Positions 4,791 through 26,936 of a DNA stretch of 64,000 bases are shown here, piece after piece. How positions within the stretch are numbered: the stretch's first letter is position 1; each line of letters starts with the position of its first letter. Position numbers and translations under genes: made by a program. The notes under the pieces are model-generated. The model was given only the letters and a program-made list of their open reading frames with translations, ran no database searches and was not told where the DNA came from. The stretch comes from an uncultured Planctomycetia bacterium (GTDB taxonomy: Bacteria; Omnitrophota; Gorgyraeia; 1-14-0-20-64-10), in the NCBI GenBank assembly GCA_964597545.1, contig CAZQXN010000005.1, positions 12,647-76,646 on the forward strand. The letters are read 5' to 3'.

Positions 4791-6165
4791 GAGATTCTCC
4801 TGGTTCTTGAAGGGCGCTGTAGAGCAGCTCTGCGTACCGCTTATAGCCGAGTTGATTAAAGTGGCCTGCGTCTCCATAGAGCCGCTCCTGACGTGCCAAG
4901 CGGCGCAGGTCCGGTGTCACATCGACATAAGCGAGATTGTGCGCGCGCGCAATCCCGGAAAGAACCTCCGAGAGAATGCGCTGGTGTTCGAAGCTTTCGG
5001 TCCATACTTGAGGATCATCGGTTCCGGTGATGCGCTCTGCCTGGTCTGCGTATACCGTGGCCGCCGAGGGAATGTAACTTAGGCAAACCTGAGCCGAGGT
5101 CTGACTGCGCAGATTCTCCAGAGTCTTCGCCACAATCGTCAGTCCCGCGGAAAGCTCATCGCCCGCCTGATCCTTTGCGAGCAGGTCCGGTGAGCAATGC
5201 TCCAGAGGGATGCGCACTTGGGAGGCGCCGATGGTCAGGTGGGCTTCGGGCATCGCCCCGGCTTGAGCCTGAAGGGTTCCCTGAAACAAAGAGGCAATCG
5301 CAGATCCTCTCACCCATCGATCGCTTCGGCGGTTAGGGCGTCCATAGTACTGCTCTAGGGGAGCTGCCCGATCCATGACGCCCTGCAGGCGCAGGGCATC
5401 GGAGAGGTCGTTGCCCTCATAGAAATTCACAATGACAAGATCCGGCCTCTTTTGGATGCCAAAACGCTCAAAGGCCAACAACCACTGTTGAGGTGCTCCG
5501 CCCAGGTCGCCTAAGCTGTATGCCGTTAAGCCGGCGAGTTTCGAAAAGTGCTCGGCGATCGTCACACGGCTCGTTCCGCGGGTGAAGGAATCCCCGAGAA
5601 AAAGAACATCCAGCGTGTTGTTTTTGCTGTAGAGTCCGGGGCGGTTCCTAAAGCCCGCCTCATCGACTACGACTGGAACCCAGCGATCTCCGGCATCCTC
5701 AGTGCGAAGGAGCCCCGAATGATTTGGGGTCAGCCTACGCAGATAGCCCTCTGTCACGTAGTTTCCGGTCAGCAGATCAAAGGGAAGCGCCGGCTGATTG
5801 GGTTTTCCAGATCGGGCTGCATTCAGCGCTGCAGCGCGGGCAATGATGCGGGGTGGCATCTCCTGAAGAAGCTGCTCAGGCACGAGGAAGGGGTTCTGCC
5901 AGAGTGCAAACTCCGCCAGAGCGATAGAGCCGGCACCCCCGACAAAGAGCGCCAAGGCGCGCTTGCTCCAAAGTTCGGATCGACTGATGAAGAGAAGGCC
6001 CCCCGCAAAAAGCGCCATCCCCGCAAGGAACGCAAAACGGGTTTTGGAATATATCCAGATGGCAGCATCCACGCTGGGTTCCAAGGCGAAGAGGGCGGTT
6101 GCGAGCAGCAGAATGATCCCCAGCCCCCGCGTTACTCCCTGCGCCACAAGGGTTGCTGATAACAT
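4780..6165 (-). CDS. membrane-anchored SGNH hydrolase, AlgX/AlgJ-like (putative glycan O-acyltransferase/esterase)
   Basis: N-terminal hydrophobic helices, then a GDS block (VLFLGDSFTRG), a GND block (NFYEGNDLSD) and a C-terminal DAGHFNQLGY resembling the DGHW(N) signature of AlgX/AlgJ. Start probably at the internal M at 6165. Confidence 0.55.
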   Translation of the reverse strand: MLSATLVAQGVTRGLGIILLLATALFALEPSVDAAIWIYSKTRFAFLAGMALFAGGLLFISRSELWSKRALALFVGGAGSIALAEFALWQNPFLVPEQLLQEMPPRIIARAAALNAARSGKPNQPALPFDLLTGNYVTEGYLRRLTPNHSGLLRTEDAGDRWVPVVVDEAGFRNRPGLYSKNNTLDVLFLGDSFTRGTSRVTIAEHFSKLAGLTAYSLGDLGGAPQQWLLAFERFGIQKRPDLVIVNFYEGNDLSDALRLQGVMDRAAPLEQYYGRPNRRSDRWVRGSAIASLFQGTLQAQAGAMPEAHLTIGASQVRIPLEHCSPDLLAKDQAGDELSAGLTIVAKTLENLRSQTSAQVCLSYIPSAATVYADQAERITGTDDPQVWTESFEHQRILSEVLSGIARAHNLAYVDVTPDLRRLARQERLYGDAGHFNQLGYKRYAELLYSALQEPGESHAP

Positions 6166-7937
6166 CAGGCCCACCGCCTCCAGTCTAATTCCACGCAAAC
6201 CTCTGCTGGGACAGAGCGCTGCATGATGTGCGCATTCTTTTGAAGGAGCTCCTCATGGTTTTGGAAGAAGCTCACCAGATCATCCATCCGATAGGTCAAC
6301 CCCTTGCCCTGCTTCTTCATGTCCACCAAAAAGGATCGGATCACTCCGTAGTCTTCCCGAGTATCCATGGTCAAGCGCCAGGAGCGGGCGTGACCGGGGT
6401 CGATCAGGGGGATGTGGCTGGAGCGAAATTGCTCCAGGTGAGCCGTAAGATAGCTTGTCAGGTATTCGCTTACTGAGAGGTCGCGCGCTGCTGCGTGGAT
6501 GTACCGCAGCAACCGGACGTCCAGCACTTCAAAATCCGCTCCCTTGGGCACTGCCTTTAAATCCGAATACTCGGCGCCGCTGGTCAGATGATGTTTGACG
6601 GCGTGATCCACGTACTCCGGATCAATCAGAATGTCGTCTCCTGTGATCCTCAAAATCGCATCTACAGGTTCCCGGCCCAGAGCACCGATCATCCGGCCCA
6701 AGACATCCTGGGTCGGGCCGCGATAACAGCGCACCCCAACTGCCTTCGCCGTTTGTGCCAACACAGCATCTTCGGCAGCCTCAGTTGTGCAGAGCACAAT
6801 CCGGTCTAGGCCTTTGGCCCGCTGAAGGCGCCGCAGCAGGTGCTCGATGGCCGGCATCCCGGCCACATCCAGCATGGCCTTGCCGGGCAGCCTCTCGGAA
6901 GCCATGCGAGCTGCGACCAGCGCCCAAACGGTCTCCTCAAGATCCAGGCGATTGACCGGATGCTCTTCGGGGATATCCCGCTTAAGCTTTTTACCCGCAA
7001 GGAGATTCAGCTCGAGAGGCTCGGCCGAGACGGCCTCTACACGCTTCATCACCAGATCTTCTGGGGTGAGGTTTTCTCCTGCCTGCATGGATCGGTTGGT
7101 CACCCAATGTTTTTTGACTGCCTTGCGGTAATTCTTCTCAGCCCCACTGAACGTTACAGGAGAAACGCCTATGGCCTGCTCAATGGAGCGAACCTGCCCG
7201 ACCCAGTGAGCAAACTCATCGGGATTAAGGGATGAGTAGTAGTCGATGCCCTTCTGGGAGCGGTTCAGTGTAATGTGTTTCTCGAGCACCGTTGCCCCCA
7301 TCCCGACGGCTGCCAGCGGAACGGAAAGCGCCAAGGGGTTTTCGGCATCCACATGGTCCTCACAGCCGATTTCACACCGATCCCCAAAAAGCTCAGCCAG
7401 ATAGCGGATGCGGTCAAGATTACAGTCCTCAACAGCTGTGGGATAACCCTGAAAACCGTGCAGCAGCACCGGGCGGTGTTTGCTCTGCGAACCGGTTAAT
7501 CGTTGAACCGCTTCGGCGATCTCGGGCAAGGTGCATCCGCCAAGCCCCAAGAAGATCTTCTGGGGAGTCTTTGCCAGAGTGTCCAAGAGATGGACATTTC
7601 CCAAATCAGAAGCATGCGCCTTTACCCCGTGCACAGAAAGCTCCTGTGCAAGGGTTTGGGACTGGAGGCCGAAAACGTCGCAATAGACCCTGCCGCGGCC
7701 GCCACGGATCAGCCGAGTCAAAAGCTCCCGCCACACCTCCTGAGTAAAGGCGCGCTGCTTGAAGTGTTCAAAGCGGGAGTGCGCTCGAACCAACATCTCC
7801 TCGGGCTGGTAGACCTGGAACTTCACGGCATCTGCGCCGGCCTCAAAGGCTGCATGTGCCAGTTCAAGCGCGAGGGCGGGATCCCCCTGGTGCGCGCCTG
7901 CAATCTCCGCAATGATTTCAACCGGGGGACGGCTCAC
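6165..7937 (-). CDS. fusion of NeuB-family nonulosonic acid synthase (TIM barrel + SAF) with an acylneuraminate cytidylyltransferase-like domain
   Basis: 590 aa. N-terminal IAEIAGAHQGDPALALELAHAAFEAGADAVKFQ and EKHITLN NeuB motifs, followed by a SAF-like segment. C-terminal LDVAGMPAIEHLLRRLQRAKGLDRIVLCTTEAAED...ITGDD resembles CTP_transf_3 / SpsF-like cytidylyltransferases. Confidence 0.75.
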   Translation of the reverse strand: MSRPPVEIIAEIAGAHQGDPALALELAHAAFEAGADAVKFQVYQPEEMLVRAHSRFEHFKQRAFTQEVWRELLTRLIRGGRGRVYCDVFGLQSQTLAQELSVHGVKAHASDLGNVHLLDTLAKTPQKIFLGLGGCTLPEIAEAVQRLTGSQSKHRPVLLHGFQGYPTAVEDCNLDRIRYLAELFGDRCEIGCEDHVDAENPLALSVPLAAVGMGATVLEKHITLNRSQKGIDYYSSLNPDEFAHWVGQVRSIEQAIGVSPVTFSGAEKNYRKAVKKHWVTNRSMQAGENLTPEDLVMKRVEAVSAEPLELNLLAGKKLKRDIPEEHPVNRLDLEETVWALVAARMASERLPGKAMLDVAGMPAIEHLLRRLQRAKGLDRIVLCTTEAAEDAVLAQTAKAVGVRCYRGPTQDVLGRMIGALGREPVDAILRITGDDILIDPEYVDHAVKHHLTSGAEYSDLKAVPKGADFEVLDVRLLRYIHAAARDLSVSEYLTSYLTAHLEQFRSSHIPLIDPGHARSWRLTMDTREDYGVIRSFLVDMKKQGKGLTYRMDDLVSFFQNHEELLQKNAHIMQRSVPAEVCVELDWRRWA

Positions 7938-9142
7938 AACGCTGCCTCTTCATGGGCCAGCAGGGTACGCAGCTTCTGTGCGATCAAGCGGCCTGCCAAG
8001 CGGTGGCCCTGGGCATTCCAGTGTCCCTCGCCCAGCCGCGGACCAAAGCCGTGCAGAAAAACACCTCTGGATTGGGCCTCGCGGTGCAGCAGCGGTGCCA
8101 ACGCCAACAGGGCAATGTCATGCTGATCGGAAAATTCCTGAAGGCGCCGCTCCGGATAAAACAAATCACTTACCCCCATCTGTTCTTGAAATTGACGGCG
8201 AAGGTTGGAATCCGGATGGACCTGAATACCGTTTGATAAGGTGACCAGTAAGAAACGAGCCCCGCGAGCATGGACTTCGTCACGCATTTCAAGCAGTAGG
8301 CGCTCGGTAACGGTCCAGGCTTTTTTCCAGGTCGCATCTGCTGGGGGACGATAGACCAAGCTGTCCAAACCCGGCTCCTCCCCTGCTGTGGGGGGGAGGT
8401 TGGCTTGGGCCAAACCGCCCCGGGCATTCTGGAGCGCGTTCTTTGCGCGGCTGACAAGCTGCAGGCAGCGCACATGCTCCAGGGCTTGGTAATACAGCTG
8501 AAACGGCCGGCTCTGCCGAGTGCGCCAGGCTACATTCTTTCGGAATGAGTCGTCCAGATGCAGGCGATTGCCTTCAAGCACAAAGAAGGGGATCTGCTGG
8601 TTCTCTTCCAATTCGCGCACGTTGTTGCTGATGTCGTTTCCGGTGCAGAAGGCAAGAAGAACCACATCCGGATCATAGGCCCAGACGCGCCGGCGCAGGG
8701 TGATCAGTTCCTGAGCGGTGCCATAGCCGGAAACGCCGAAATTCATGATCTCCACAGGGCGGTCTTGGAAACCAGGGGATGCCGCCAACCCCTCTTTTGC
8801 GACCCACCAAAAGGTGCGCTCCAAGGGCATCTCCAGGGCAGCGGTATAGGAGTCGCCCAAGACGGCAATGCGTAAAGCCGATGGCGCTTTGCTCAAGTTG
8901 TGCTCCTGGTCTCTAAGCCCCTGAGAGTTGATTTGAATGAAGACTGGCTCCTCAATCTGCTCGCCCTTAAGCCACCCTTGAGCGTTGGGCCGATAAGCAT
9001 AACCCCGCTGTTCGTCAAAAACTCGAAAGGTTGGGTATCCAAAGTCAATCCCCGCCAGCCGCAATCCCGCCTCCAGGAGCAGGAACGCTGCAGTCAAGCC
9101 TCCAAACCCTAAGAAAACCCTAAGTACGCCTGAACGCTTCAT
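7934..9142 (-). CDS. SGNH hydrolase, AlgJ/AlgX-like, N-terminal signal anchor
   Basis: 402 aa. IAVLGDSYT (block I), FGVSGYG, TGNDISNN (block III) and C-terminal GEGHWNAQGH (DGHWN-like). Overlaps the upstream gene by 4 nt. Confidence 0.55.
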   Translation of the reverse strand: MKRSGVLRVFLGFGGLTAAFLLLEAGLRLAGIDFGYPTFRVFDEQRGYAYRPNAQGWLKGEQIEEPVFIQINSQGLRDQEHNLSKAPSALRIAVLGDSYTAALEMPLERTFWWVAKEGLAASPGFQDRPVEIMNFGVSGYGTAQELITLRRRVWAYDPDVVLLAFCTGNDISNNVRELEENQQIPFFVLEGNRLHLDDSFRKNVAWRTRQSRPFQLYYQALEHVRCLQLVSRAKNALQNARGGLAQANLPPTAGEEPGLDSLVYRPPADATWKKAWTVTERLLLEMRDEVHARGARFLLVTLSNGIQVHPDSNLRRQFQEQMGVSDLFYPERRLQEFSDQHDIALLALAPLLHREAQSRGVFLHGFGPRLGEGHWNAQGHRLAGRLIAQKLRTLLAHEEAAL

Positions 9143-10218
9143 GAGCGAAACACCCTTTTAAGCCAAACGAAGAACCGGGGTGAGACACGCTTGATCGCAG
9201 CCTTAGCCCCGACCCAGAGAATGCCAAGCGGAGCCCTCCAGCTGAATGCTTCACCCCCGCGGCCGATATGAAAACCGTACCAAAGCTGCCAGCGAAGCGC
9301 CCAAGCCGACTCTCCCCTCCAACGCAGCAGATGCTCCGGCGGAAGGTAGTCGCTGCGGATCAGACTCAAGGCCTTTGACTTTGCCCGGGCAGGTTTTCGG
9401 CACAAAAAGCCTGGGCCAAAGGAATTGGGTGCCCAGCTGCGGTCCAGTGGGGCGATGATCTCAAACCCGCACGCTTCAAGACACTGCTGGAGCAGGCGCG
9501 GGGTAAACATCGAGATGTGCCCAAAACCCATATGGTAGATGTTGAGATCTCGGACATCCGGAACCTCAACGTAGAGATGCCCCCCGGGCTTCAAATGCAG
9601 ATAGAAATCGGTGAGCGCGCGGTAAGGGCGCGGCAGATGCTCCAACGTGTGGTAGGAATAGAGAAAATCAACGCTTTCCGCCTTCAGTGTTGCGCGAGTA
9701 TAAGGTTCCTGGAGCATGGTTAGGCCCAACTGCTCGCGCGCAAAGCGCGCCGGGGCTTGCGCAACCTCTACCCCGGTTGCCTCCCAGCCCAACCCCTGAA
9801 ATACCCGAAGGCTTCCACCGGCTCCAGCGCCCACATCCACCATCTGACGGCCGCGACCGACTTGAATGTCCGGAAGGAGGCGCGCGATGTCGTGAAGCAC
9901 GGATTGGGTCTCTGTCTCCTCTTGGGCCGAATAGCGCTCAAGGGCATCGGCGCTGTGCTCTGCCATGTCGTCAGCATAAGTGGAAAGCCAGATGCTGTAG
10001 TCCAAATCCAGAAAGGTCAGCCCACAGCGCTTGCAGAGGCGGTAGATGACCCAATGTTGAGGCGCGTGCAGCTGCTTTCGGGCGGATAAAAGGACTTGGG
10101 TATAAGCGCTGCCGCAGAGATTGCAGACGGTCTGCTGACCCATGCGTACTGAGGAGGCTTCTGCCTTGCCGGGAAACCCTTGAGCGGTTACTGCCTTCTC
10201 AAGAACAGGTGAACTCAT
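9139..10218 (-). CDS. class I SAM-dependent methyltransferase with N-terminal Cys4 zinc-ribbon
   Basis: 359 aa. CNLCGS...CKRCG ribbon, then the MVDVGAGAGGSL SAM-binding motif. Confidence 0.7.
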   Translation of the reverse strand: MSSPVLEKAVTAQGFPGKAEASSVRMGQQTVCNLCGSAYTQVLLSARKQLHAPQHWVIYRLCKRCGLTFLDLDYSIWLSTYADDMAEHSADALERYSAQEETETQSVLHDIARLLPDIQVGRGRQMVDVGAGAGGSLRVFQGLGWEATGVEVAQAPARFAREQLGLTMLQEPYTRATLKAESVDFLYSYHTLEHLPRPYRALTDFYLHLKPGGHLYVEVPDVRDLNIYHMGFGHISMFTPRLLQQCLEACGFEIIAPLDRSWAPNSFGPGFLCRKPARAKSKALSLIRSDYLPPEHLLRWRGESAWALRWQLWYGFHIGRGGEAFSWRAPLGILWVGAKAAIKRVSPRFFVWLKRVFRS

Positions 10219-12182
10219 ACAGGCACCAAAATGGGATCCTGCCTAAAAGGGCTGGATGGGGCGCAAGGCGCATCCTCACGGGCAGTTCCCTCAACATCGC
10301 GAACCGCCTGCATGATCTCTGCACGCAGGCGCTCGATCGACTTGCCATCAGAAAAGAAGCTAAAATCTTTGGCCAACCGCTCAAGCCCTGCTTTGGGCCA
10401 AGCATTCTTCAGGAGTCTCCCGACTGCCTGCGCGACATCGTCACCGGATTTGAGGACCCAGGCTCGATTGTATTGCCCCAGGAAGCTGTCGGCCGTGCCC
10501 ATGTGGTCAAAGGCAGCGCATGGAATACCGGCAACCGCTGCTTCTAAGAGTCCTGTGGTGTGGCTGCCCCCTATGACCAAGTCGCTGACCGACATCCAGG
10601 CATAGGTGTCCAGCCATTCGGCATCGGAAGTAATGCGGGCATCTTGAGCAAGAATCTCCTCCAGGCCGAAGGCCAACCACTGGCGCTTTAGCGTTTCTGA
10701 GCGAAAGCGGCAAACCACTTGGAAGTTCCCGGTAAGCGTCTTGAGGCGCCTCAGTCCCTCAAGTAGGGCCTGGGCTCTCGAGCGCAGCACAAACCACTCT
10801 TTGAGGTTCGGCAAAAGCAGCAAGATACGGGGGTGCACAGTGCCAAACTGCCTTTGGCAAGCCTTGAGCAATTCCTGCCTCGCCGGCTTCCGCTGTGCGC
10901 GCAAGATCAGATCCGTGCGATAGGCCCCGATGGGCAACTGGCGCATGCCAGCCCAGTGCGGGCCGAAAAGATCCGCAAAGCCCTTCCCCCAAACACAGAG
11001 CCTGTGGATGGTGGTGTAGCGCATGCCCGGAAGGATTTGAGGAGCGATGGGATTTCCATGGTGCATTCCAAGGGTCAGTCGGTTGAGCTGGCGTGCGACG
11101 ATGGAGCGGACGACATGGGCCGGAGAGTAATCCTGGTACTCCAACCACACCTTATAGCTCACTGTGCGGGCAAAGCGCAGCTCCTTAAGATAGGTTCTTA
11201 TCAGTGCAGCCGAGGCAGCAGCAAACCGCGGTTCCTCCACCCAGAAAAGAGGCCGCAGTGCCAGGCTCCAGGAGCGCAGGCACAGCCCCGCCAGCTCAAT
11301 CAACCCTGCGCGGCCTACAGGCAGCTGCTTTGGGTTGACGTATCGAATCCCCTGCTCCTGCATGCGCTGACGCTGAGCCAGAAGCGCTTGGGTGCTGAGG
11401 CGCCAGTCCCCCTGGCAGAAGAGAACACGCTCTGGGGTAAGTTCTCCGCCCAGCAGCAGACCATCGTCATGTCCTGCCCACTGGGGCTCATTCGGATCCC
11501 GAAAACCTGATGTGAGCGGCATGGCCACATCTGTTTTGATGGGAGTTGCAGTCCGACGTACGCCGCCGCAGAGAATGGCCTCAAGCACTGGGTGAATGGA
11601 GAAGGCAAAAAGGTGGAAGACGTTGATTAACCCCAGGGTATGCGCTGTTCTGCGCAGCAGATGCGCAGCCCTCAACCAGAGGCGCACGCCCACTGGGACC
11701 ATTGCCTGCACCAAAGCGTCCTGAGCCAACTTGTGCTCGTCGAAGCGCTCGGGCAAGAGAACAAGCCGGCCCTCCCGCTTGAGGGCAGCCGCCGTTCGAT
11801 AGAAAAGGGTTTGGGATAAGAGCTCGGGCAGGAGCCTGAGCTTGTAGTAACGCTCAAGGCAATCAGTCTCAATTAAAACACTCATGCGCTGAAAGCTTAC
11901 GGATCTTTGCGCCGAATGAAACAGGCGCTCCATGGGCTCGGCAGAGGCCTCGTTGTTTTTGTGCCAGAGGGGCAGGAAGATCTCTTGTGGAACCTCGGAA
12001 AGATCGGCTCCAGGATTCAACCAGCGGATAAGGCGCAGGGTAGCCTGCACAATCCAAGCGGGCGCCCCCCTGCCCCCATACAGATCGTGCGGCGGGAAAA
12101 ATAGGATGCGCTGGGCGCGCACAAGGGTTCCGCAGGCAAGAAGGGTTTTCCAGATGCTGTGGCGCCCAAACAGAACGGTCAT
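10215..12182 (-). CDS. large hypothetical protein with KpsC/KpsS-like (capsule polysaccharide biosynthesis, GT-B-type) C-terminal region; candidate CMP-ulosonic acid transferase
   Basis: 655 aa. C-terminal SDLVIGGSHTTGLLEAAVAGIPCAAFD resembles the conserved donor-binding stretch of the Capsule_synth / KpsC-KpsS family. Paralogous motifs occur in the 34818 and 41226 genes. Assignment is tentative. Confidence 0.4.
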   Translation of the reverse strand: MTVLFGRHSIWKTLLACGTLVRAQRILFFPPHDLYGGRGAPAWIVQATLRLIRWLNPGADLSEVPQEIFLPLWHKNNEASAEPMERLFHSAQRSVSFQRMSVLIETDCLERYYKLRLLPELLSQTLFYRTAAALKREGRLVLLPERFDEHKLAQDALVQAMVPVGVRLWLRAAHLLRRTAHTLGLINVFHLFAFSIHPVLEAILCGGVRRTATPIKTDVAMPLTSGFRDPNEPQWAGHDDGLLLGGELTPERVLFCQGDWRLSTQALLAQRQRMQEQGIRYVNPKQLPVGRAGLIELAGLCLRSWSLALRPLFWVEEPRFAAASAALIRTYLKELRFARTVSYKVWLEYQDYSPAHVVRSIVARQLNRLTLGMHHGNPIAPQILPGMRYTTIHRLCVWGKGFADLFGPHWAGMRQLPIGAYRTDLILRAQRKPARQELLKACQRQFGTVHPRILLLLPNLKEWFVLRSRAQALLEGLRRLKTLTGNFQVVCRFRSETLKRQWLAFGLEEILAQDARITSDAEWLDTYAWMSVSDLVIGGSHTTGLLEAAVAGIPCAAFDHMGTADSFLGQYNRAWVLKSGDDVAQAVGRLLKNAWPKAGLERLAKDFSFFSDGKSIERLRAEIMQAVRDVEGTAREDAPCAPSSPFRQDPILVPV

Positions 12183-14182
12183 GCTCCGGCCTCCAGCGGT
12201 TGAGGTGCTTGAGCCGCCTTCTCAGATTGAAGCTGCCACAGCCGGGCGTAGATTCCTCCGCGGACTAAAAGGGTTTCGTGGCTGCCCTGTTCGACTAAGC
12301 GGCCCCGATCTAAGACCAAGATTTGATCTGCCTGGGCAACGGTTGAAAGACGGTGGGCGATGATCAAGAGGGTTCTACGCCGCCGCTCGGCTTCGAGCGC
12401 CTCCTGGATGAGCCGCTCTGACTCAGAGTCTAGGGCAGAGGTTGCCTCGTCCAAGATCAGCAGCTGGGGTTGGCGCACCAAGGCGCGGGCCAGCGCAATC
12501 CTTTGGCGCTGCCCACCGGAGAGCCGATAGCCCCTGTCTCCGATCACGGTGCTGTAGCCATCGGCCAGCTCCTTGATAAAGCAGTCTGCATGTGCGGCTT
12601 GCGCCGCAGCCAAAATCTCTTCCTCGGTTGCGCCGGGTTTGCCAAAGGCGATGTTGTCCCGAATGCTTGCGTGGAAGAGAAAGGGTTGCTGGCTGACTAC
12701 ACCCAGATGTTGGCGCCATGCATGCGAAGAGAGGGCAGCCAGGGGTTGCCCATCAACAACGATCTGACCCGAGGTGGGTTCGTAGAGCCTTAGCAGCAAA
12801 TCAGCTACAGTTGATTTCCCAGCGCCGGAAGTGCCCACCAGCGCGGTCATGGATCCGCGCGGCATCTCAAAGGTTAGCCCTGACACCGCAGCTGGTTCAT
12901 CTGGATGATAGGTCAGGGTGACGCGATCGAAAGCAACCTTCCCCTTGAGGCCGGAAAAATCCCTTCCGGACTCTGCGGCTCGGGTGTCTTCCGGCTGTTG
13001 CAGAATTTGATTGAGGCGTCCGATGCTGGGCCCAAAGCGTGCCAGGGTAGTGCGAGCGCTGTAAATGGATCTCAGCCGCGGGGCCATCCGATGCAGCGCC
13101 AATAAGAAGGCCAACAACGAAGGCAAGGCGGCCTGGGTTCCGGAGCCTAAAACAAAGAATCCTCCCAGCAGCAGAGCGCCTGCTCCCAGCACGGTCAGGA
13201 TATCGGTCAGGGGCTCTACGGTGCTGCCCCAAATGCTGGCAAGGCAACGGCTGCGCATCCCCTCTTGCGCCAAGCGCCCCACGGTTTGCGTGGAGCGCTC
13301 TTGTGCGGAAAAGGTATGGAGCGACCGAATGGCCGAAAGGAATTCTGTGGCCCGCTCGCTTAGGGTGACAGTTTTCTCAGTGAAGCGGCGCGCATGCTGC
13401 CCTACCCGGGAGATGGCCTTGCGCAGAGCCCAGGTCATGGCCCCGGCCAATACTGCTGCCACTGCGGTCATGGGCCAGGAAATCCAAAGCATGAGGGCCA
13501 CATAGACAGCGACCAGCAGGACGCTTCGCAACAGGACGTTAAGCTCTGAAATGATTTCATGCAAGTAATTCGTGTGGCTAAGGTAGTCGGTCAGATCCCC
13601 AAGCTTGTATCGGCTGGCAGCAGGAAAGCTTAAATGCATGACACGCGAGAAGATGCGCTTATAGGCGTCGGCCTGAACGCGGGTGTGTAGGATGGCGGCT
13701 GAGACCTCACCCAAGAATTGCAGTAGGCTGCGCAGGACCTGAAAACCGACCGCCAGAAGCACAAGGCTTAAGAACAGCGGTGCTCTGCCCAACGCCAAGC
13801 TCTCCAACCACTGTCCGAATGCACCATAAGTTGCTGCCAGCGTTTGCTCGGGCGAAGCACCCAGCACTTGAAGGCCGACAGCCAAAAGCCCAATGCTGCT
13901 GCCTTCAAAGATGGCTGCAACCAGGTTGGCTGTAAAGGCGAGGGCAAGAAAACCCCAGGCAGGACGGATCAGATCCCAGATCAAAACAAAGGGGTTACGG
14001 TTTTTTTGGATAGCGCGCTGCCGCGCCTTCGGGGAGCTAATGTTCATCACATGAACATCCCATATCCTATCTGGCTTGTCAAGGGGTTTTGAGGGGTGAT
14101 GGGCCGGCAGGCAGACACTGTAACACGTTTGAATATAAGGAGTTACAACATCAAGCCCAAGCGAATTTACACTTGAGAACAA
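12179..14182 (-). CDS. ABC exporter, fused permease + ATPase (MsbA/PglK-like type I exporter)
   Basis: 667 aa. Six predicted TM helices, then Walker A (GTSGAGKST), signature LSGGQRQRIALARAL and Walker B ILDEATSALD. Confidence 0.9.
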   Translation of the reverse strand: MFSSVNSLGLDVVTPYIQTCYSVCLPAHHPSKPLDKPDRIWDVHVMNISSPKARQRAIQKNRNPFVLIWDLIRPAWGFLALAFTANLVAAIFEGSSIGLLAVGLQVLGASPEQTLAATYGAFGQWLESLALGRAPLFLSLVLLAVGFQVLRSLLQFLGEVSAAILHTRVQADAYKRIFSRVMHLSFPAASRYKLGDLTDYLSHTNYLHEIISELNVLLRSVLLVAVYVALMLWISWPMTAVAAVLAGAMTWALRKAISRVGQHARRFTEKTVTLSERATEFLSAIRSLHTFSAQERSTQTVGRLAQEGMRSRCLASIWGSTVEPLTDILTVLGAGALLLGGFFVLGSGTQAALPSLLAFLLALHRMAPRLRSIYSARTTLARFGPSIGRLNQILQQPEDTRAAESGRDFSGLKGKVAFDRVTLTYHPDEPAAVSGLTFEMPRGSMTALVGTSGAGKSTVADLLLRLYEPTSGQIVVDGQPLAALSSHAWRQHLGVVSQQPFLFHASIRDNIAFGKPGATEEEILAAAQAAHADCFIKELADGYSTVIGDRGYRLSGGQRQRIALARALVRQPQLLILDEATSALDSESERLIQEALEAERRRRTLLIIAHRLSTVAQADQILVLDRGRLVEQGSHETLLVRGGIYARLWQLQSEKAAQAPQPLEAGA

Positions 14183-23904: not shown

Positions 23905-24813
23905 TCATCTGGTTTTCCTTGCGGAGGGATTCGCAGGTTGTTTCAGAAGGGAGCCTTCTATTACCGACTCAGTATAAGCTCCGGGGTTTCCCTTGTCTAG
24001 GTCTTTAAAAACAGCCTGCTGCAGGGGATCCGCCTCCAAGCAGCGACGCACTTCCGGGATCTCGCGCTGCTCATTGATGCCGCTGTAGCCTCTGGTGAAC
24101 GAAACGCTCATGAGTAGCACTTCATGTTCTACAATTCGGTTCTGATCGATGGATTCGGCTCGTTCCAGGGGGGTACGTGCAAGAGCGCTGTAGCGCCCCA
24201 GGAAATCTTTCCGATAAGCCAAAATCCCAAGAATTCGTCGCAGGGGTCCCGACGCTTCTCCCGCAGGCAGCGGCAAATGAGAGAAGTCGCGCGCGCACAC
24301 CAAAATGCGGCCCGACACTGAAAGGGCGCATTTCACGATCGATCGGTCCGCAAGCTCCTCACCCCTCTCAATCCTGGCCACCGCATTCCACGCAGGGATC
24401 TCCGGCCGCTCCTGGATCGCCTGAACCAGGCGCTCCAAATCGGAGGGAAGCACCAGGATCTCATCTCCTTGAACATTGACGACATGGGTGCAGTCCAAAG
24501 CTTGGGCCGCCTCCGCAACTCGGTCTGTGGCAGCGGGATGCTTGGGCGAGGTCATGAGCACCTGGCCTCCATTTTTCTCAACGACAGCTGCGATTTGGCG
24601 ATCACAGGTGGCGACCACGACGGTAGAAAATCCGCGGCACATCAGGGTACGCCTCCGAACATGCTCAATCATCGGAAGCCCCAAAATCTCCAGGAGGGGT
24701 TTCCCGGGCAGCCGCGAAGAGCCCATTCGAGCAGGGATAACAGCTGCAATTCGAATCATTGAACGCATCATCACACCTACTGGGGTAACGTCCCGCAATC
24801 TATATTGAGGCAC
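23905..24813 (-). CDS. KdsB-like cytidylyltransferase (CMP-ulosonic acid synthetase family)
   Basis: IAAVIPARMGSSRLPGKPLLEILGLPMIEHV matches the KdsB/CMP-Kdo synthetase N-terminal motif. Real start probably an internal M (MIRIAAVIPAR). Confidence 0.75.
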   Translation of the reverse strand: MPQYRLRDVTPVGVMMRSMIRIAAVIPARMGSSRLPGKPLLEILGLPMIEHVRRRTLMCRGFSTVVVATCDRQIAAVVEKNGGQVLMTSPKHPAATDRVAEAAQALDCTHVVNVQGDEILVLPSDLERLVQAIQERPEIPAWNAVARIERGEELADRSIVKCALSVSGRILVCARDFSHLPLPAGEASGPLRRILGILAYRKDFLGRYSALARTPLERAESIDQNRIVEHEVLLMSVSFTRGYSGINEQREIPEVRRCLEADPLQQAVFKDLDKGNPGAYTESVIEGSLLKQPANPSARKTR

Positions 24814-25541
24814 TGGCCGGTGATGGCCGATGCACCCTGAGAAACCAAGAAGTAAACAACCTCAGCGACCTCCTCGACCTTGGGCAATCGGCCCAGAGCA
24901 GTCTGGGTGGAGGCAAAGTTGGACAGATACGCCTCAACGGTTTCGCCCGCCGCAGGAGAAACCGGCTCCCGGAGGGCGGCATGGATCTGCTCGGTTTCCA
25001 CGTAGACCGGACAGACGGCGTTGACACGAATTCCCTTGGGCCCAAGCTCCTTGGCCAGCGACTGGGTGATGCCGTTGACCGCAAACTTGGCGGCGCAGTA
25101 AGCGCTGTTGTTGGTTGAGCCGCGCTTGCCCGCCAGAGAGGAAACGTTGACAATGACTCCTCCTGTGGGCATCCCCTCGGCTGCAGCTGCGCACCCCCAC
25201 AGGGTACCCAAGAGAGAAGTCTCAATCACCTTCTGGACGAAGAGCTCATCAATGTCATGCAGCGATTTCCAACGAGACACCCCCGCGCAGTTGATGAAGA
25301 CGTCCAAAGAACCGAAACGCTCCCTGGCGGCGCGAACAAAGCGGTGCATCCCATCCCGCTGCCGGACATCGACCCGCTCATGAAAAATCCCCTTAGGCAG
25401 CGGGGGTTGCGGGGTTGCGCGCGAGCAAACCGCCACTTGATCGCCCCGGTTGCAGAAAAGTTCCGCAATCGCCCGGCCGATCCCCCGGCTGCCGCCGGTG
25501 ATCACCACACCCCTGCTCTTTTGAGCTTGGTTCTCCTCCAT
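24777..25541 (-). CDS. SDR-family oxidoreductase
   Basis: TGGSRGIGRA cofactor motif and YCAAK catalytic motif. Confidence 0.8.
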   Translation of the reverse strand: MEENQAQKSRGVVITGGSRGIGRAIAELFCNRGDQVAVCSRATPQPPLPKGIFHERVDVRQRDGMHRFVRAARERFGSLDVFINCAGVSRWKSLHDIDELFVQKVIETSLLGTLWGCAAAAEGMPTGGVIVNVSSLAGKRGSTNNSAYCAAKFAVNGITQSLAKELGPKGIRVNAVCPVYVETEQIHAALREPVSPAAGETVEAYLSNFASTQTALGRLPKVEEVAEVVYFLVSQGASAITGQCLNIDCGTLPQ

Positions 25542-25549
25542 TGTGTCCC

Positions 25550-26308
25550 CTAGATTGTCATGGCGGTAAACCCGCCATCCACTGTAACCACCGAACCCGT
25601 TACGAAGCTGGAAGAATCTGAGGCCAACCAGACAACAGCCCCCACCAACTCGCTGGGTTTGGCAAACCGGTTCATTGGGGTGTGCCCCAAAATCTTCTCT
25701 TTTCGTTCCGCATCAATGAAATGCTTCATGCTCCACTCGGTCGGAAGAAAACCGGGCTTGAGTGCGTTGACGCGAACGTTAAAGGGGGCCCATTCCCGCG
25801 CCAGATTCTGCGTCAGGTTCAACACCCCTGCCTTGGCAGCCGAATAGACGAATGCCCTGGACAAGGGAGGGTCGGCAGAGACCGACGTGAAGTTGATGAT
25901 GGAACCAGACTTCTGCTTGATCATGGTCTCTCCGAATACCTGACAGGCATAGAGCGTACCGCCCAGATTCACGCCGAGAATCCAGTCGATCTCCTCTTGA
26001 GTAATCTCGAAGAACGGCGTCGGCGCATTGGCTCCAGCGCCGTTGAGGAGCAGATCCACCCGTCCATGCTTGGCGAGGATCTCTTCTCGACAGCGGATGA
26101 GTCCCTCTTTTGAAGTCACATCGCACGACAGGACATCAACGGATGCGGGCACGCCGGCTTTGCGCGCCTGCTCCTCGGGCGCCGCATCCAAAACCGTCAC
26201 GGCCACCCCGGCTTCATCCAACGCTTTGGCCAGGGTGGAGCAGATGTATCCGGCGCCCCCCACGACAACGGCGCGCTTTCCCTTTAGATTGAACCGATCA
26301 TTTGACAT
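25550..26308 (-). CDS. SDR-family oxidoreductase
   Basis: VVGGAGYICS Gly-rich motif and YSAAK catalytic motif. Confidence 0.8.
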   Translation of the reverse strand: MSNDRFNLKGKRAVVVGGAGYICSTLAKALDEAGVAVTVLDAAPEEQARKAGVPASVDVLSCDVTSKEGLIRCREEILAKHGRVDLLLNGAGANAPTPFFEITQEEIDWILGVNLGGTLYACQVFGETMIKQKSGSIINFTSVSADPPLSRAFVYSAAKAGVLNLTQNLAREWAPFNVRVNALKPGFLPTEWSMKHFIDAERKEKILGHTPMNRFAKPSELVGAVVWLASDSSSFVTGSVVTVDGGFTAMTI

Positions 26309-26933: not shown

Positions 26934-26936
26934 GAT

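What the first reader, a model, noticed from the sequence alone, without database searches (positions are those of the whole stretch)
10215..12182. Three paralogous large proteins with KpsC/KpsS-like motif, two next to ABC exporters
Genes 10215-12182, 34818-36422 and 41226-43349 (534-707 aa) share a C-terminal stretch (…SDLVIGGSHTTGLLEAAVAGIP… / …ADLTVGLMIGGTAALESSLVGKP… / …VVLYRGTSSVLFALLNGLKV…) resembling the donor-binding region of KpsC/KpsS beta-Kdo transferases, which use CMP-activated ulosonic acids. Five cytidylyltransferase domains and three NeuB homologs sit in the same operon, so these are strong candidates for uncharacterised CMP-nonulosonic/ulosonic acid transferases. Two of them abut the MsbA/PglK-like ABC exporters at 12179 and 39440.
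Basis: inference. Interest (0 to 1): 0.6.

Follow-up and report, generated by a model that had tools for sequence, protein, structure and literature searches.

The report
Three orphan GT-B sugar-acid transferase candidates

Summary
The three ORFs exist exactly as stated: A 10215-12182, B 34818-36422, C 41226-43349, all on the minus strand. None has a Pfam or NCBIfam assignment.

**Relationship.** A and C are true remote homologues over their full length (hhalign 97.6%, E 3e-12). B is only marginally linked to them (E 4e-4).

**Fold.** AlphaFold models of B (pLDDT 90) and A (pLDDT 78) are GT-B glycosyltransferase folds. C was not modelled.

**Known families.** KpsC/KpsS kinship is not supported. 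PF05159 gives no hit, and profiles tested directly against E. coli KpsC and KpsS are insignificant. The nearest family signals are sub-threshold matches by relatives to TIGR04396, TIGR04326 and the BFO_1060 family, which holds the Tannerella Pse/Leg transferases.

**B-family motifs.** B carries an invariant E-G and an invariant R-x-H-P, 133 residues apart. This is the motif pair of bacterial sialyltransferases, and the same residue strings recur at similar spacing in E. coli KpsC.

**Context.** Each protein sits with one CMP-sugar pathway:
- C follows Pse/Leg-type genes, and one relative is a PseG+C fusion.
- B travels across phyla with an HpcH aldolase/SDR/KdsB-like cassette, and occurs fused to GT2 or HAD-IIIA.
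- A follows an ABC exporter and precedes a NeuB-cytidylyltransferase fusion.

**Verdict.** These are probable new families of CMP-ulosonic-acid transferases.

The parts
10215..12182 (-). Protein A (655 aa). It has an extra N-terminal alpha/beta region (aa 1-215) followed by a GT-B two-Rossmann core (about aa 216-640). Family-conserved residues are D351, H375 (invariant), R492, R494, S542 and E547.
   Evidence: ORF and translation. No Pfam or NCBIfam assignment. The family has 264 representatives in an exhaustive HMMER search. AF2 model pLDDT 77.8. Foldseek hits are GT-B enzymes: a Rickettsia GT, UDP-GlcNAc 2-epimerases, TarL and TagF. Conserved residues.
34818..36422 (-). Protein B (534 aa). 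It has a helical N-terminal extension (aa 29-121) followed by a GT-B core. Invariant residues include E267-G268, R398-x-H400-P401 and Y442-R-G-(T/S)-S.
   Evidence: 109 homologues, none carrying a Pfam domain in the B part. AF2 pLDDT 90.3, pTM 0.89. Foldseek best hit is GT-B 6j31 at E 1e-10. Invariant columns. RxHP found in 53 of 54 sequences at the expected spacing.
41226..43349 (-). Protein C (707 aa, GTG start). It is a full-length remote homologue of A. Conserved residues are D358, Q381-R382, K496-P497, G553/T555 and E559.
   Evidence: 19 homologues. hhalign of the A family against the C family gives 97.6%, E 3e-12 over 593 columns. Weak matches to TIGR04396 (E 0.002) and BFO_1060 (E 0.014). 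No structure was predicted for C.
12179..14047 (-). ABC1, an ABCB/MsbA-type half-transporter. Its stop overlaps the start of A. The longest ORF reaches 14182, but ATG 14047 is the more likely start.
   Evidence: Pfam ABC_membrane plus ABC_tran. PDB matches to ABCB1, MsbA and Sav1866. Junction sequence. The order AsnSyn-ABC-A is conserved in L001, L009 and L011.
39440..41233 (-). ABC2, a second ABCB-type half-transporter. Its start overlaps the stop of C by 8 nt. The 683-aa ORF starting at 41491 is probably too long.
   Evidence: Start-codon analysis found GGAG upstream of ATG 41233. L005 has the same 8-nt overlap of C and ABC. The NBD is 51% identical to that of ABC1.
46077..55841 (-). Pse-type nonulosonic acid pathway transcribed ahead of C, the presumed source of C's donor. 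Members: PseB-like dehydratase 54783-55841, DegT aminotransferase 53578-54861, B12-rSAM 51860-53575, NeuB 50789-51838, formyltransferase-like 50215-50775, PseG 49148-50218, GFO oxidoreductase 48122-49135, and a CTP_transf_3 plus aminotransferase fusion 46077-48122.
   Evidence: Pfam. PseG passes TIGR03590 (159.8 bits against a cutoff of 153.55). P0005 is a PseG+C fusion. PseG or DegT lies directly upstream of C in many loci.
36409..37359 (-). GT2 glycosyltransferase whose stop overlaps the start of B. In other genomes it is fused to B.
   Evidence: Pfam. GT2+B fusions: P0025, P0066 and the 829-aa gene in L005.
23905..34821 (-). Conserved gene set that travels with B. Members: GFO oxidoreductase 33799-34821, methyltransferase 32837-33802, PEP mutase plus NTP transferase 31146-32840, SIS/GmhA-like 30500-31126, FSA/transaldolase 29766-30503, HpcH-type pyruvate aldolase 26937-27737, HAD 26298-26933, two SDRs 24777-26308, and a KdsB-like cytidylyltransferase 23905-24813. 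It is the presumed source of B's donor.
   Evidence: Pfam. The cytidylyltransferase passes the KdsB subfamily model NF003952 (200 bits against a cutoff of 193). Co-occurrence counts in 40 B loci. HpcH-SDR-SDR-CTP3-B are adjacent in Chlorobium and Devosia.
6165..10218 (-). Genes transcribed just after A: methyltransferase 9139-10218, GDSL-like protein 7934-9142, and a NeuB+SAF+CTP_transf_3 fusion 6165-7937. The fusion is the presumed source of A's donor.
   Evidence: Pfam. The same order is found in L001. A-family loci L009-L012 carry DegT, CTP3, NeuB and GT2+CTP3 downstream.

Best explanation
A, B and C are soluble, net-basic GT-B-fold glycosyltransferases. They probably act at the cytoplasmic face of the membrane. 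They belong to three families that no Pfam model covers. A and C are demonstrably homologous to each other. B is at most a distant member of the same clade as NCBIfam TIGR04396, TIGR04326 and BFO_1060.

Each most likely transfers one CMP-activated 2-ulosonic acid, made by the genes beside it, onto a growing and probably lipid-linked glycan:
- C transfers the Pse/Leg-type nonulosonic acid of the PseB-PseC-NeuB-PseG-cytidylyltransferase module.
- B transfers the product of the SIS/FSA/HpcH-aldolase/SDR/KdsB-like cassette, working together with the adjacent GT2.
- A transfers the product of the NeuB-cytidylyltransferase fusion downstream of it.

In B, E267 of the invariant E-G would act as the catalytic base or acceptor-positioning residue. 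H400 of R-x-H-P would bind the CMP phosphate, as in GT38/52/80 sialyltransferases. A and C carry Asp at the position of the Glu, and Arg or Lys at the position of the His. The two translationally coupled ABCB-type exporters would then move the glycolipid products across the inner membrane.

What is shown: the fold, the A-C homology, the motifs, the linkage and the fusions. What is inferred: the donor identity, the acceptor and the role of the exporters.
For: **Fold**
- The B model has pLDDT 90.3. Its Foldseek hits are exclusively GT-B glycosyltransferases, down to E 1e-10.
- The A model has pLDDT 77.8 and hits GT-B enzymes including TagF and TarL, which use cytidine-nucleotide donors.

**Homology**
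- The A family against the C family gives hhalign 97.6%, E 3e-12.
- 11 of 78 A-family members hit TIGR04396 (best 2e-10), and 7 of 78 hit BFO_1060 (best 4.5e-7).
- 29 of 60 B-family members hit TIGR04326 (best 1e-8), 15 hit TIGR04396 and 4 hit BFO_1060.
- BFO_1060 is the ortholog of Tanf_01245 and TFUB4_00887. Knock-outs of those genes lose the terminal Pse or Leg derivative (PMC5420450).

**Motifs**
- E267-G268 and R398/H400/P401 are among only 19 invariant columns in 60 B-family sequences.
- The E-to-H spacing is 133 residues. It is 123 in E. coli NeuS and 127-128 in the two KpsC modules.
- The roles of these motifs in sialyltransferases were established by mutagenesis and the PmST1 structure (PMC2169525).

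**Context**
- HpcH-SDR-SDR-CTP_transf_3 lies directly upstream of B homologues in Chlorobium and Devosia, with a 4-nt overlap in Devosia.
- Among 40 metagenome loci carrying a B homologue: MT 29, SIS 28, GFO 27, HpcH 23, TAL 21, C 16.
- The window's copy of that cytidylyltransferase passes a KdsB subfamily model.

**Fusions**
- PseG+C (P0005), B12-rSAM+A-family (P0164), GT2+B (P0025, P0066, L005), HAD-IIIA+B (P0082, P0090, P0091).

**Gap-filling**
- At least four CMP-sugar synthetases are present, yet none of the 54 ORFs matches a known sialyl, Kdo, Maf or Capsule_synth transferase family.

**Location**
- None of the three has a TM helix, and each has 16-22 more K+R than D+E.
Against: - No donor or acceptor has been tested, so everything about substrate rests on association.
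- A, B and C themselves do not reach any family cutoff. C scores 17 bits against 125 for TIGR04396, and 14.5 against 200 for BFO_1060. A and B score nothing.
- Neither model has a sialyltransferase, KpsC or WbbB structure in its top 50 Foldseek hits.
- A and C lack the HP histidine. Their nearest structural and sequence neighbours (epimerases, TagF/TarL) do other chemistry.
- The A model was built on a merged A+C alignment and has low-confidence loops exactly around H375 (aa 375-392).
- Most synteny evidence comes from one lineage (Omnitrophota/PVC MAGs), so the loci are not independent observations.
- The metagenome loci were retrieved with the LYEG..WE and LYRG[ST]S patterns, so conservation of those two motifs there is circular.
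- ABC adjacency is not universal. Only 4 of 16 C-bearing metagenome loci show an ABC gene nearby.
Confidence: 0.5

Rival explanations
1. One reading: the three proteins are KpsC/KpsS-type (GT107/GT99-like) retaining beta-Kdo or ulosonic-acid transferases. They would have the modified GT-B fold of that group and an Asp nucleophile.
For: - B has an E-G...H-P pair at KpsC-like spacing.
- A statistically insignificant hhalign alignment of the B family to the C-terminal module of KpsC still places three motifs in register: VLVLPEG with VILVPGQ, FI.R.HP with IVYKPHP, and LYRGSS...L.GLK with HTMTSLSGFEALLHGKH.
- B is linked to a KdsB-like cytidylyltransferase.
- The KpsS1 Pse transferase (GT118) shows that this clade can use nonulosonic acids (PMC12887879).
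Against: - PF05159 gives no hit for A, B or C at E<=1. It hits 0 of 60 B relatives and 1 of 78 A relatives, the latter at E 0.015.
- Profiles against E. coli KpsC and KpsS give hhalign probability <=4.8% and HMM E>=0.1 in an 8-sequence database.
- No KpsC, WbbB or KrkA chain appears in the top 50 Foldseek hits of either model.
- NeuC and NeuE match the cited region as well or better.
Confidence: 0.07
2. A and C (and perhaps B) are TagF/TarL-like phosphotransferases. They would move an alcohol-phosphate or phosphonate head group, for example from a CDP-polyol or from the CMP-phosphonate made by the PEP-mutase/nucleotidyltransferase fusion, onto the glycan, rather than a sugar.
For: - Foldseek hits of A include TarL (8va1) and TagF (3l7k, 3l7m) at E 3e-6 to 5e-6.
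- 3 of 78 A-family members weakly hit PF04464 Glyphos_transf, and one hits TarF.
- The only invariant residue of the A family is a His in the N-domain (H375). From recalled knowledge, TagF uses a catalytic His.
- A PEP mutase plus NTP_transf_3 fusion is in the cluster.
- The Tannerella enzymes were originally annotated with a TagB domain (PMC5420450).
Against: - The PF04464 signal is weaker than the TIGR04396/BFO_1060 signal: 3 of 78 against 11 of 78, and best E 0.002 against 2e-10.
- The PEP mutase gene is 19 kb from A and is not a regular neighbour of A or C homologues. Their regular neighbours are DegT, PseG, NeuB and CTP_transf_3.
- The PseG+C fusion ties C to a nonulosonic acid pathway.
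Confidence: 0.12
3. They are ordinary NDP-hexose GT-B glycosyltransferases of divergent sequence. They would build the backbone of the glycan, and the ulosonic acids would be added by other proteins, for example the GT2+cytidylyltransferase fusion or the polytopic membrane proteins.
For: - The best Foldseek hits of B are GT1, GT4 and GT20 enzymes that use UDP, TDP or ADP sugars.
- A gives weak Glycos_transf_1 hits.
- An RmlD-like gene, GT2 genes and GT4 genes are interleaved with the three proteins.
Against: - The invariant R-x-H-P and E-G pair of B is a hallmark described for CMP-sialic acid enzymes.
- Tight and phylogenetically broad coupling of B to a cytidylyltransferase gene.
- Fusions to PseG and to HAD-IIIA.
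- The cluster already has four conventional GT2/GT4 enzymes but otherwise no candidate for four CMP-sugars.
Confidence: 0.15
4. They are not transferases. They would be GT-B-fold biosynthetic enzymes of the nonulosonic acid pathways, either NeuC/LegG-like hydrolysing 2-epimerases or PseG-like nucleotide-sugar hydrolases.
For: - Top Foldseek hits of A include several UDP-GlcNAc 2-epimerases, with target-normalised TM up to 0.61.
- 5 of 78 A-family members weakly hit Epimerase_2, and 2 hit NeuC.
- The best single comparison against the K1 cluster proteins is the A family against NeuC (probability 26%, E 7e-4).
- No NeuC/LegG homologue was recognised next to the NeuB-cytidylyltransferase fusion near A.
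Against: - The similarity is confined to the nucleotide-binding C-domain.
- The proteins are about 250 residues longer than epimerases.
- A genuine PseG is already present, and in one relative it is fused to C rather than replaced by it.
- L093 has a genuine Epimerase_2 gene in addition to its C and B homologues.
- Translational coupling to membrane exporters fits a late assembly step better than a precursor step.
Confidence: 0.08

Closest known systems
BFO_1060 family glycosyltransferases (NCBIfam NF046086; Tannerella forsythia Tanf_01245 Pse-derivative and TFUB4_00887 Leg-derivative transferases), with the related NCBIfam 'surface carbohydrate biosynthesis protein' families TIGR04396 and TIGR04326
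   Same: - They are GT-B/TagB-like proteins encoded next to nonulosonic acid biosynthesis genes.
- C itself, and relatives of A and B, give sub-threshold hits to these models over the C-terminal domain.
- The Tannerella enzymes also carry D/E-D/E-G and HP motifs (PMC5420450).
- C homologues sit behind either Pse-type or Leg-type pathways, mirroring the strain-specific Pse and Leg enzymes of Tannerella.
   Different: - A, B and C fall far below every curated cutoff.
- They are 170-340 residues longer than BFO_1060 (365-position model), with extra N-terminal regions.
- A and C replace the HP histidine with Arg or Lys.
- B is linked to a KdsB-like/HpcH cassette rather than to NeuB genes (NeuB in 2 of 40 loci).
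Bacterial GT-B sialyltransferases and polysialyltransferases (CAZy GT38, GT52, GT80; e.g. NeuS, NmB-polyST, PmST1)
   Same: - GT-B fold.
- B has an invariant acidic-Gly motif in the N-domain and an invariant basic-x-His-Pro motif in the C-domain. Local sequence context is similar (B ILRSHP, NeuS FIKPHP), as is the spacing (133 against 123 residues).
   Different: - No Pfam hit to any sialyltransferase family was obtained.
- hhalign of the family profiles against NeuS gives <=0.7%.
- The first acidic residue of D/E-D/E-G is Tyr in B.
- No sialyltransferase appears in the top 50 structural hits.
KpsC/KpsS (GT107), WbbB (GT99), KpsS1 (GT118), KrkA (GT140): retaining Kdo/Pse transferases with a modified GT-B fold
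   Same: - They use CMP-activated ulosonic acids.
- KpsC modules carry EDG...HP pairs 127-128 residues apart, like B.
- B is linked to a KdsB-like gene, as kpsC and kpsS are to kpsU.
   Different: - There is no significant sequence, profile or (within the top 50) structural similarity.
- No evidence was obtained here for an Asp nucleophile or a retaining mechanism.
TagF/TarL CDP-polyol phosphotransferases (PF04464)
   Same: - They are among the best structural matches of A.
- They use cytidine-nucleotide donors.
- A few A-family members give weak PF04464 hits.
   Different: - They transfer polyol phosphates rather than sugars.
- Gene context here is nonulosonic acid synthesis, not CDP-glycerol or CDP-ribitol synthesis.
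UDP-GlcNAc 2-epimerases / NeuC (PF02350)
   Same: - Top structural hits of A.
- Weak C-domain profile matches.
   Different: - These are epimerases or hydrolases of about 380 aa.
- The similarity is restricted to the nucleotide-binding domain.
- Genuine PseG and Epimerase_2 genes coexist with A, B or C homologues.

Membership tests
GT-B fold glycosyltransferase superfamily | Two Rossmann-like alpha/beta domains with an inter-domain cleft, and structural similarity to solved GT-B enzymes | tested here: met
   B: pLDDT 90.3, with 264 PDB hits at E<=1e-3 whose 50 listed best are all GT-B enzymes. A: pLDDT 77.8, with 135 such hits. C was not modelled; it is inferred from its homology to A.
KpsC/KpsS (Pfam PF05159 Capsule_synth; CAZy GT107) | Sequence match to the PF05159 profile | tested here: not met
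   No hit for A, B or C at E<=1. 0 of 60 B relatives and 1 of 78 A relatives (E 0.015) hit it.
KpsC/KpsS (Pfam PF05159 Capsule_synth; CAZy GT107) | Detectable homology to the E. coli KpsC and KpsS proteins themselves | tested here: not met
   Family HMMs and hhalign against UTI89 KpsC and KpsS give probability <=4.8% and E>=0.008. NeuC and NeuE score better.
KpsC/KpsS (Pfam PF05159 Capsule_synth; CAZy GT107) | Modified GT-B fold closest to the KpsC or WbbB structures | tested here: inconclusive
KpsC/KpsS (Pfam PF05159 Capsule_synth; CAZy GT107) | CMP-Kdo donor and retaining double-displacement chemistry with an Asp nucleophile | not testable with these tools
   This needs enzymology or a ligand-bound structure.
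Bacterial sialyltransferases GT38/GT52/GT80 | D/E-D/E-G motif in the N-domain, where the acidic residue next to Gly is essential | tested here: inconclusive
   B has an invariant E267-G268, preceded by Y266 rather than D/E. A has D351-Y352 and C has D358-H359 at the aligned position, with no Gly.
Bacterial sialyltransferases GT38/GT52/GT80 | HP motif in the C-domain, about 125 residues (GT38/52) after the acidic motif | tested here: inconclusive
   Met in B: invariant H400-P401, 133 residues after E267, present in 53 of 54 further homologues. Not met in A (R494-S495) or in C (K496-P497-Q498; the family consensus is K-P-K).
Bacterial sialyltransferases GT38/GT52/GT80 | Sequence or profile similarity to family members | tested here: not met
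   No sialyltransferase Pfam family appears among the hits. hhalign against E. coli NeuS gives <=0.7%.
BFO_1060 family (NF046086), TIGR04396 and TIGR04326 surface carbohydrate biosynthesis proteins | Score at or above the curated NCBIfam cutoff | tested here: not met
   C scores 17.3 bits against a cutoff of 125 (TIGR04396) and 14.5 against 200 (NF046086). A and B give no hit at E<=1.
BFO_1060 family (NF046086), TIGR04396 and TIGR04326 surface carbohydrate biosynthesis proteins | Remote homology through intermediate sequences | tested here: met
   A family: 11 of 78 hit TIGR04396 (best 2e-10) and 7 of 78 hit NF046086 (best 4.5e-7). B family: 29 of 60 hit TIGR04326 (1e-8), 15 of 60 hit TIGR04396 and 4 of 60 hit NF046086. 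All are E-values; none was checked against the curated cutoffs.
BFO_1060 family (NF046086), TIGR04396 and TIGR04326 surface carbohydrate biosynthesis proteins | Encoded beside nonulosonic or ulosonic acid synthesis and CMP-activation genes | tested here: met
   Seen in the window and in L001, L004-L012 and L093, and in the 40-locus survey.
TagF-like CDP-polyol phosphotransferases (PF04464) | Profile match to PF04464 and structural similarity to TagF or TarL | tested here: inconclusive
   Structural similarity is present for A (E about 4e-6). The profile match is limited to 3 of 78 relatives at E>=0.002, and A itself does not match.
Maf (DUF115, PF01973) flagellin nonulosonic acid transferases | Match to PF01973 | tested here: not met
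   No PF01973 hit for A, B, C or any other of the 54 ORFs.

The most novel reading that the evidence does not exclude
B defines a widespread, unclassified glycosyltransferase family found in Omnitrophota, Chlorobium, Devosia and many metagenomes. It carries the sialyltransferase/Kdo-transferase E-G...H-P signature. It would be the dedicated transferase for a still undescribed 3-deoxy-2-ulosonic acid. That acid would be made not by a NeuB or KdsA synthase but by an HpcH-type pyruvate aldolase together with SIS, FSA, two SDRs, a methyltransferase and a KdsB-like cytidylyltransferase. A and C would be two further new families of nonulosonic (Pse/Leg-type) acid transferases in which Arg or Lys replaces the HP histidine. 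Together the three would supply several of the 'missing' ulosonic acid transferases.
Probability: 0.3. Interest if true: 0.75.

Novelty: new variant of a known kind. Interest (0 to 1): 0.55.

Why it matters
Many bacteria make pseudaminic, legionaminic and related sugar acids, but very few of the enzymes that attach them are known (stated in PMC5420450). The known attaching enzymes are Maf proteins, a handful of CAZy sialyltransferase families, KpsS1 and the genetically defined Tannerella enzymes.

Three sequence families with no Pfam model are reported here. They have confident GT-B models, conserved candidate catalytic residues, and consistent linkage or fusion to PseG, KdsB-like, HAD-IIIA and GT2 genes. 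That makes them concrete, clonable candidates.

The B family also flags a conserved HpcH-aldolase/KdsB-like cassette. It may encode an undescribed route to a CMP-activated ulosonic acid in several phyla.

If confirmed, these families would improve annotation of surface-glycan loci in uncultured lineages such as Omnitrophota. They would also add tools for chemoenzymatic synthesis of rare sugar-acid glycans.

Tried and rejected
- **Pairwise BLASTP of the three proteins.** Only a weak A-C C-terminal match appeared. This was too insensitive, so family profiles replaced it.
- **Shallow hhalign (4-sequence A alignment).** A-C reached only 24%. The homology became clear only after the exhaustive HMMER search gave 78 A-family sequences.
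- **PDB sequence searches with single proteins and with profiles.** Nothing useful was found.
- **Exact look-ups of A, B and the identical copy of C in the assembly index.** These failed, so the source contig could not be read. Cluster look-up gave no names.
- **Locus fishing with the full A5 and A3 alignments.** This failed for lack of a conserved stretch. The subsets A6 and A7 worked.
- **Further paralogs in the window.** HMMs of the three families hit no other ORF. The other Pfam-less ORFs are polytopic membrane proteins, or PseG.
- **Transmembrane anchoring of A, B and C.** No TM segment was found by hydropathy.
- **PFTS-motif proteins (PF27878) as counterparts of A/C in other phyla.** Only a weak C-terminal match to A (probability 25%) and none to C. 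The question is left open.
- **HMM-to-sequence cross-hits between B and A/C.** None was found.
- **Literature on TIGR04326, TIGR04396, PFTS or an HpcH plus cytidylyltransferase pathway.** Nothing relevant was found in the searchable library.

Full report
**1. What is in the sequence**

The window holds about 54 ORFs, all on the minus strand, at GC near 0.58. Of 53 junctions, 39 overlap, 10 are gaps of 0-30 nt, and four are gaps of 72-119 nt. The three ORFs of the finding are real and lie at the stated coordinates:
- A = 10215-12182, 655 aa.
- B = 34818-36422, 534 aa.
- C = 41226-43349, 707 aa, with a GTG start.

Pfam annotation of the rest of the window confirms the stated context:
- NeuB domains at 1085-1765 (a short form), 6165-7937 (fused to SAF and CTP_transf_3) and 50789-51838.
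- CTP_transf_3 domains at 3378-4877 (fused to GT2), 6165-7937, 23905-24813 and 46077-48122 (fused to a class-III aminotransferase).
- An NTP_transf_3 domain fused to PEP mutase at 31146-32840.

The two neighbouring transporters are ABCB/MsbA/Sav1866-type half-transporters.
- The stop of ABC1 overlaps the start of A (ATGA).
- The long ORF of ABC2 overlaps C by 266 nt. However, an ATG at 41233 with GGAG upstream gives an 8-nt overlap with the stop of C. An Omnitrophica MAG shows the same 8-nt overlap.

**2. Are the three related, and to what?**

Individually, none has a significant Pfam, NCBIfam or PDB-sequence match.
- A gives two GT1-type hits at E about 0.08.
- C gives TIGR04396 at E 0.002 and BFO_1060 at E 0.014, both far below the cutoffs.

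Pairwise BLASTP links only the C-termini of A and C (E 0.002) and does not link B to either.

Homologue searches showed that each protein represents its own family.
- A had 3 close homologues. An exhaustive HMMER search then found 264 cluster representatives, 138 of them at E<=1e-10.
- C had 19 homologues.
- B had 109 homologues down to 22% identity, including Omnitrophica MAGs, a Deltaproteobacteria MAG, Devosia and Chlorobium.
- None of these carries a Pfam domain in the homologous part.

With deep alignments, the A family aligns to the C family over 593 columns at probability 97.6%, E 3e-12. A and C are therefore genuine remote homologues over their whole length, including an extra N-terminal region.

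The A family against the B family reaches only 34%, E 4e-4 over 384 columns. HMM-to-sequence searches give no B cross-hits. No further member of any of the three families is encoded in the window.

**3. Fold**

The AlphaFold2 model of B, built on 60 sequences, is confident (pLDDT 90.3, pTM 0.89). The model of A, built on a merged A+C alignment, is fair (pLDDT 77.8, pTM 0.78). It has low-confidence loops at aa 226-241 and 375-392.

Both models show the strand order of a GT-B enzyme, with seven strands followed by five or six. The strands correspond one-to-one between A (aa 219-558) and B (aa 127-482).

Foldseek against the PDB returns only GT-B enzymes.
- For B: a kitacinnamycin GT (E 1e-10), OtsA, CalG1, BshA, TarM, SdgB and a capsule multienzyme.
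- For A: a Rickettsia GT, UDP-GlcNAc 2-epimerases, TarL, TagF and OtsA (E 5e-7 to 6e-5).

A, B and C have no hydropathy-detectable TM helix and are net basic. This fits peripheral association with the cytoplasmic face of the membrane.

**4. The KpsC/KpsS hypothesis tested directly**

- PF05159 is absent from A, B and C. It is also absent from 60 of 60 B relatives and from 77 of 78 A relatives.
- I fetched the K1 capsule locus of E. coli UTI89 and compared the three family profiles with KpsC, KpsS, NeuS, NeuE and NeuC.
- KpsC and KpsS reach at most 4.8% hhalign probability.
- The best values are A family against NeuC (26%, E 7e-4) and B family against NeuE (12.5%).

It is not a KpsC/KpsS signature.

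The hypothesis is not empty at motif level, though.
- B has an invariant E267-G268 after the fourth strand of the N-domain, and an invariant R398-x-H400-P401 after the second strand of the C-domain.
- Further homologues keep RxHP in 53 of 54 cases.
- The two motifs are 133 residues apart.
- E. coli NeuS has EEG and KPHP 123 residues apart. The two KpsC modules have EDG and HP 127-128 residues apart.
- The D/E-D/E-G and HP motifs are experimentally required in GT38 polysialyltransferase. In PmST1 they contact the acceptor and the CMP phosphate respectively (PMC2169525).
- An insignificant local alignment of B to the second module of KpsC still puts three donor-domain motifs in register.

A and C keep an Asp at the acidic position (D351, D358). 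They have Arg or Lys where B has the His (R494; K496-P-K/Q).

**5. Nearest family-level signal**

When family members are scanned one by one:
- 11 of 78 A relatives hit TIGR04396 (best 2e-10), and 7 of 78 hit the BFO_1060 family (best 4.5e-7).
- 29 of 60 B relatives hit TIGR04326 (best 1e-8), 15 hit TIGR04396, and 4 hit BFO_1060.

BFO_1060 is the strain 92A2 ortholog of Tannerella forsythia Tanf_01245 and TFUB4_00887. Deleting those genes removes the terminal pseudaminic or legionaminic acid derivative from the O-glycan (PMC5420450).

I found no paper on TIGR04326, TIGR04396 or the PFTS family in the searchable library. A, B and C are thus outliers of a poorly studied GT-B clade. Its only studied members are nonulosonic acid transferases known from genetics.

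**6. Genomic association**

*C family.*
- In two Omnitrophota-type genomes the order is the same as in the window: DegT, B12-rSAM, cytidylyltransferase, NeuB ... C, ABC, (GDSL), RmlD-like, GT2, B, GFO, methyltransferase, SIS, transaldolase.
- ORF 49148-50218 passes the PseG equivalog model.
- One relative, P0005, is a PseG+C fusion. PseG lies directly upstream of C in L021, L043 and L051.
- In L093 a C homologue follows a Leg-type gene set instead: Epimerase_2, a PglD-like acetyltransferase and an NTP-transferase with CBS.

*B family.*
- In Chlorobium phaeovibrioides and Devosia the gene lies directly after an HpcH aldolase, SDR, SDR, CTP_transf_3 cassette.
- In 40 metagenome loci of at least 8 kb its companions are: methyltransferase 29, SIS 28, GFO 27, HpcH 23, transaldolase/FSA 21, RmlD-like 19, C 16, GT2 14, CTP_transf_3 12. 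NeuB appears in only 2.
- The window has the same cassette at 23905-31126. Its cytidylyltransferase passes a KdsB subfamily model.
- B occurs fused to GT2 (P0025, P0066, L005) and to an N-terminal HAD-IIIA domain (P0082, P0090, P0091). From recalled knowledge, KdsC belongs to the HAD-IIIA class.

*A family.*
- AsnSyn-ABC-A is conserved in L001, L009 and L011. A is followed by GFO, DegT, cytidylyltransferase, NeuB and GT2+cytidylyltransferase genes.
- One relative, P0164, is fused to a B12-radical-SAM domain.
- A, B and C homologues also co-occur on one 131-kb contig of another MAG.

*Gap-filling.* None of the 54 ORFs matches a known sialyl, Kdo, Maf or Capsule_synth transferase family. The three proteins are the obvious candidates for the missing steps.

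**7. Interpretation**

The best-supported reading (confidence about 0.5 for the donor class, much higher for 'GT-B glycosyltransferase') is that the three proteins are CMP-ulosonic-acid transferases, each serving one neighbouring pathway:
- C serves the Pse/Leg-type acid.
- B serves the product of the HpcH/KdsB-like cassette, acting together with the GT2.
- A serves the product of the NeuB-cytidylyltransferase fusion.

The coupled ABCB-type exporters probably move the lipid-linked product outward. This part is inferred. ABC adjacency is seen in only some lineages (4 of 16 C-bearing metagenome loci).

Rival readings were weighed and judged less likely but not excluded, especially for A. Its nearest neighbours are epimerases and TagF/TarL. 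The rivals are:
- genuine KpsC/KpsS relatives;
- TagF-like phosphotransferases;
- ordinary NDP-sugar glycosyltransferases;
- NeuC/PseG-like pathway enzymes.

**8. Caveats**

- There is no biochemical evidence.
- C was not modelled.
- The A model rests on a merged alignment.
- Structural ranking is limited to 50 Foldseek rows.
- Much of the synteny comes from related MAGs.
- The metagenome loci were retrieved with two B-family motifs, so those two motifs are not independently confirmed there. The RxHP motif and the neighbouring genes are independent of the retrieval patterns.
- The source organism is not identified. The closest relatives are Omnitrophota or PVC-group MAGs.

**9. Novelty and score**

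These are Pfam-unclassified sequence families of a known fold. They have a plausible but unproven activity of a known kind, so I file them as a new variant of a known kind.

The most interesting element is the cross-phylum B family with its aldolase/KdsB-like cassette, for which I found no literature in the searchable library. Interest is 0.55.

Noticed in passing
window 23905-31126 (-); also L006, L007, L073, L083, L086: A conserved cassette holds a GmhA-like SIS isomerase, an FSA/transaldolase, an HpcH/HpaI-type pyruvate aldolase, a HAD phosphatase, two KduD/mannonate-oxidoreductase-like SDRs and a KdsB-like cytidylyltransferase. It looks like an undescribed aldolase-based route to a CMP-activated 3-deoxy-2-ulosonic acid. 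It recurs in Chlorobium, Devosia and many metagenome contigs, next to B homologues. No paper was found on it.
   Followed up: partly
window 49148-50218 (-): This Pfam-less 356-aa ORF is a PseG (TIGR03590, 159.8 bits against a cutoff of 153.55). With the PseB-like, DegT, NeuB and cytidylyltransferase genes it forms a pseudaminic-acid-type pathway. A formyltransferase-like gene (50215-50775) sits where an acetyltransferase is usual.
   Followed up: partly
window 31146-32840 (-): A PEP mutase fused to an NTP_transf_3 nucleotidyltransferase suggests a nucleotide-activated phosphonate decoration of the same glycan. No dedicated phosphonate transferase was identified.
   Followed up: no
window 51860-53575, 58161-59777, 61648-63237 (-): Three B12-binding radical SAM enzymes lie in one sugar cluster, probably as C-methylases or other tailoring enzymes. 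One A-family relative (P0164) is fused to such a domain.
   Followed up: no
window 44560-46080, 18256-19782, 55805-58156 (-): Three polytopic membrane proteins (506, 508 and 783 aa; 8-12 hydrophobic segments) have no Pfam hit here. The positional counterpart of 18256-19782 in the syntenic locus L001 carries PMT_2, a GT-C-type family. They are candidates for periplasmic glycan transferases, ligases or polymerases acting after the ABC exporters.
   Followed up: partly
window 17225-18259 and 19659-20957 (-): Two proteins with an N-terminal DUF4330-like segment and IPT/TIG domains sit in the middle of the cluster. They are possibly secreted or surface proteins that serve as glycosylation targets.
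   Followed up: no
window 3378-4877 (-); L009, L011, L012: A GT2 glycosyltransferase is fused to a CTP_transf_3 cytidylyltransferase. It is conserved at 56-58% identity in other loci, higher than its neighbours, and lies directly after the A homologue in L012. It is an alternative candidate for a CMP-sugar-using transferase.
   Followed up: no
window 1085-1765 (-); L001, L012: A short NeuB-like protein (226 aa) lacks the first ~50 profile positions and the SAF domain. It is conserved (66% identity in L012), so it is not a pseudogene. Its function is unclear.
   Followed up: no
window 39440-41491 and 12179-14182 (-): The longest ORFs of both ABC exporters are probably over-extended at the 5' end. 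Likely starts are ATG 41233 (GGAG upstream, 8-nt overlap with C) and ATG 14047. The two exporters share 51% identity in the ATPase domain, but their membrane domains do not align by BLASTP, suggesting different substrates.
   Followed up: yes
window 20944-22422 / 21921-23069 (-): The listed 492-aa ORF of the 2-hydroxyacid dehydrogenase overlaps the next ORF by 500 nt. Its Pfam match begins at residue 207, and the L001 ortholog is 301 aa. Its true start is therefore much later.
   Followed up: partly
L006 1922-3562, L007 318-1871, L008 11635-13359: Outside Omnitrophota, B homologues co-occur with 'PFTS motif' polysaccharide biosynthesis proteins (PF27878/TIGR04417, 517-574 aa). These show only a weak C-terminal profile match to the A family (probability 25%). 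They may play the role that C plays in Omnitrophota.
   Followed up: partly
window 4780-6198, 7934-9142, 38406-39443 (-): Three GDSL/SGNH-like proteins are interleaved with the transferases and exporters. They are possibly O-acyl transferases or esterases acting on the glycan. One follows ABC2 in several genomes.
   Followed up: no
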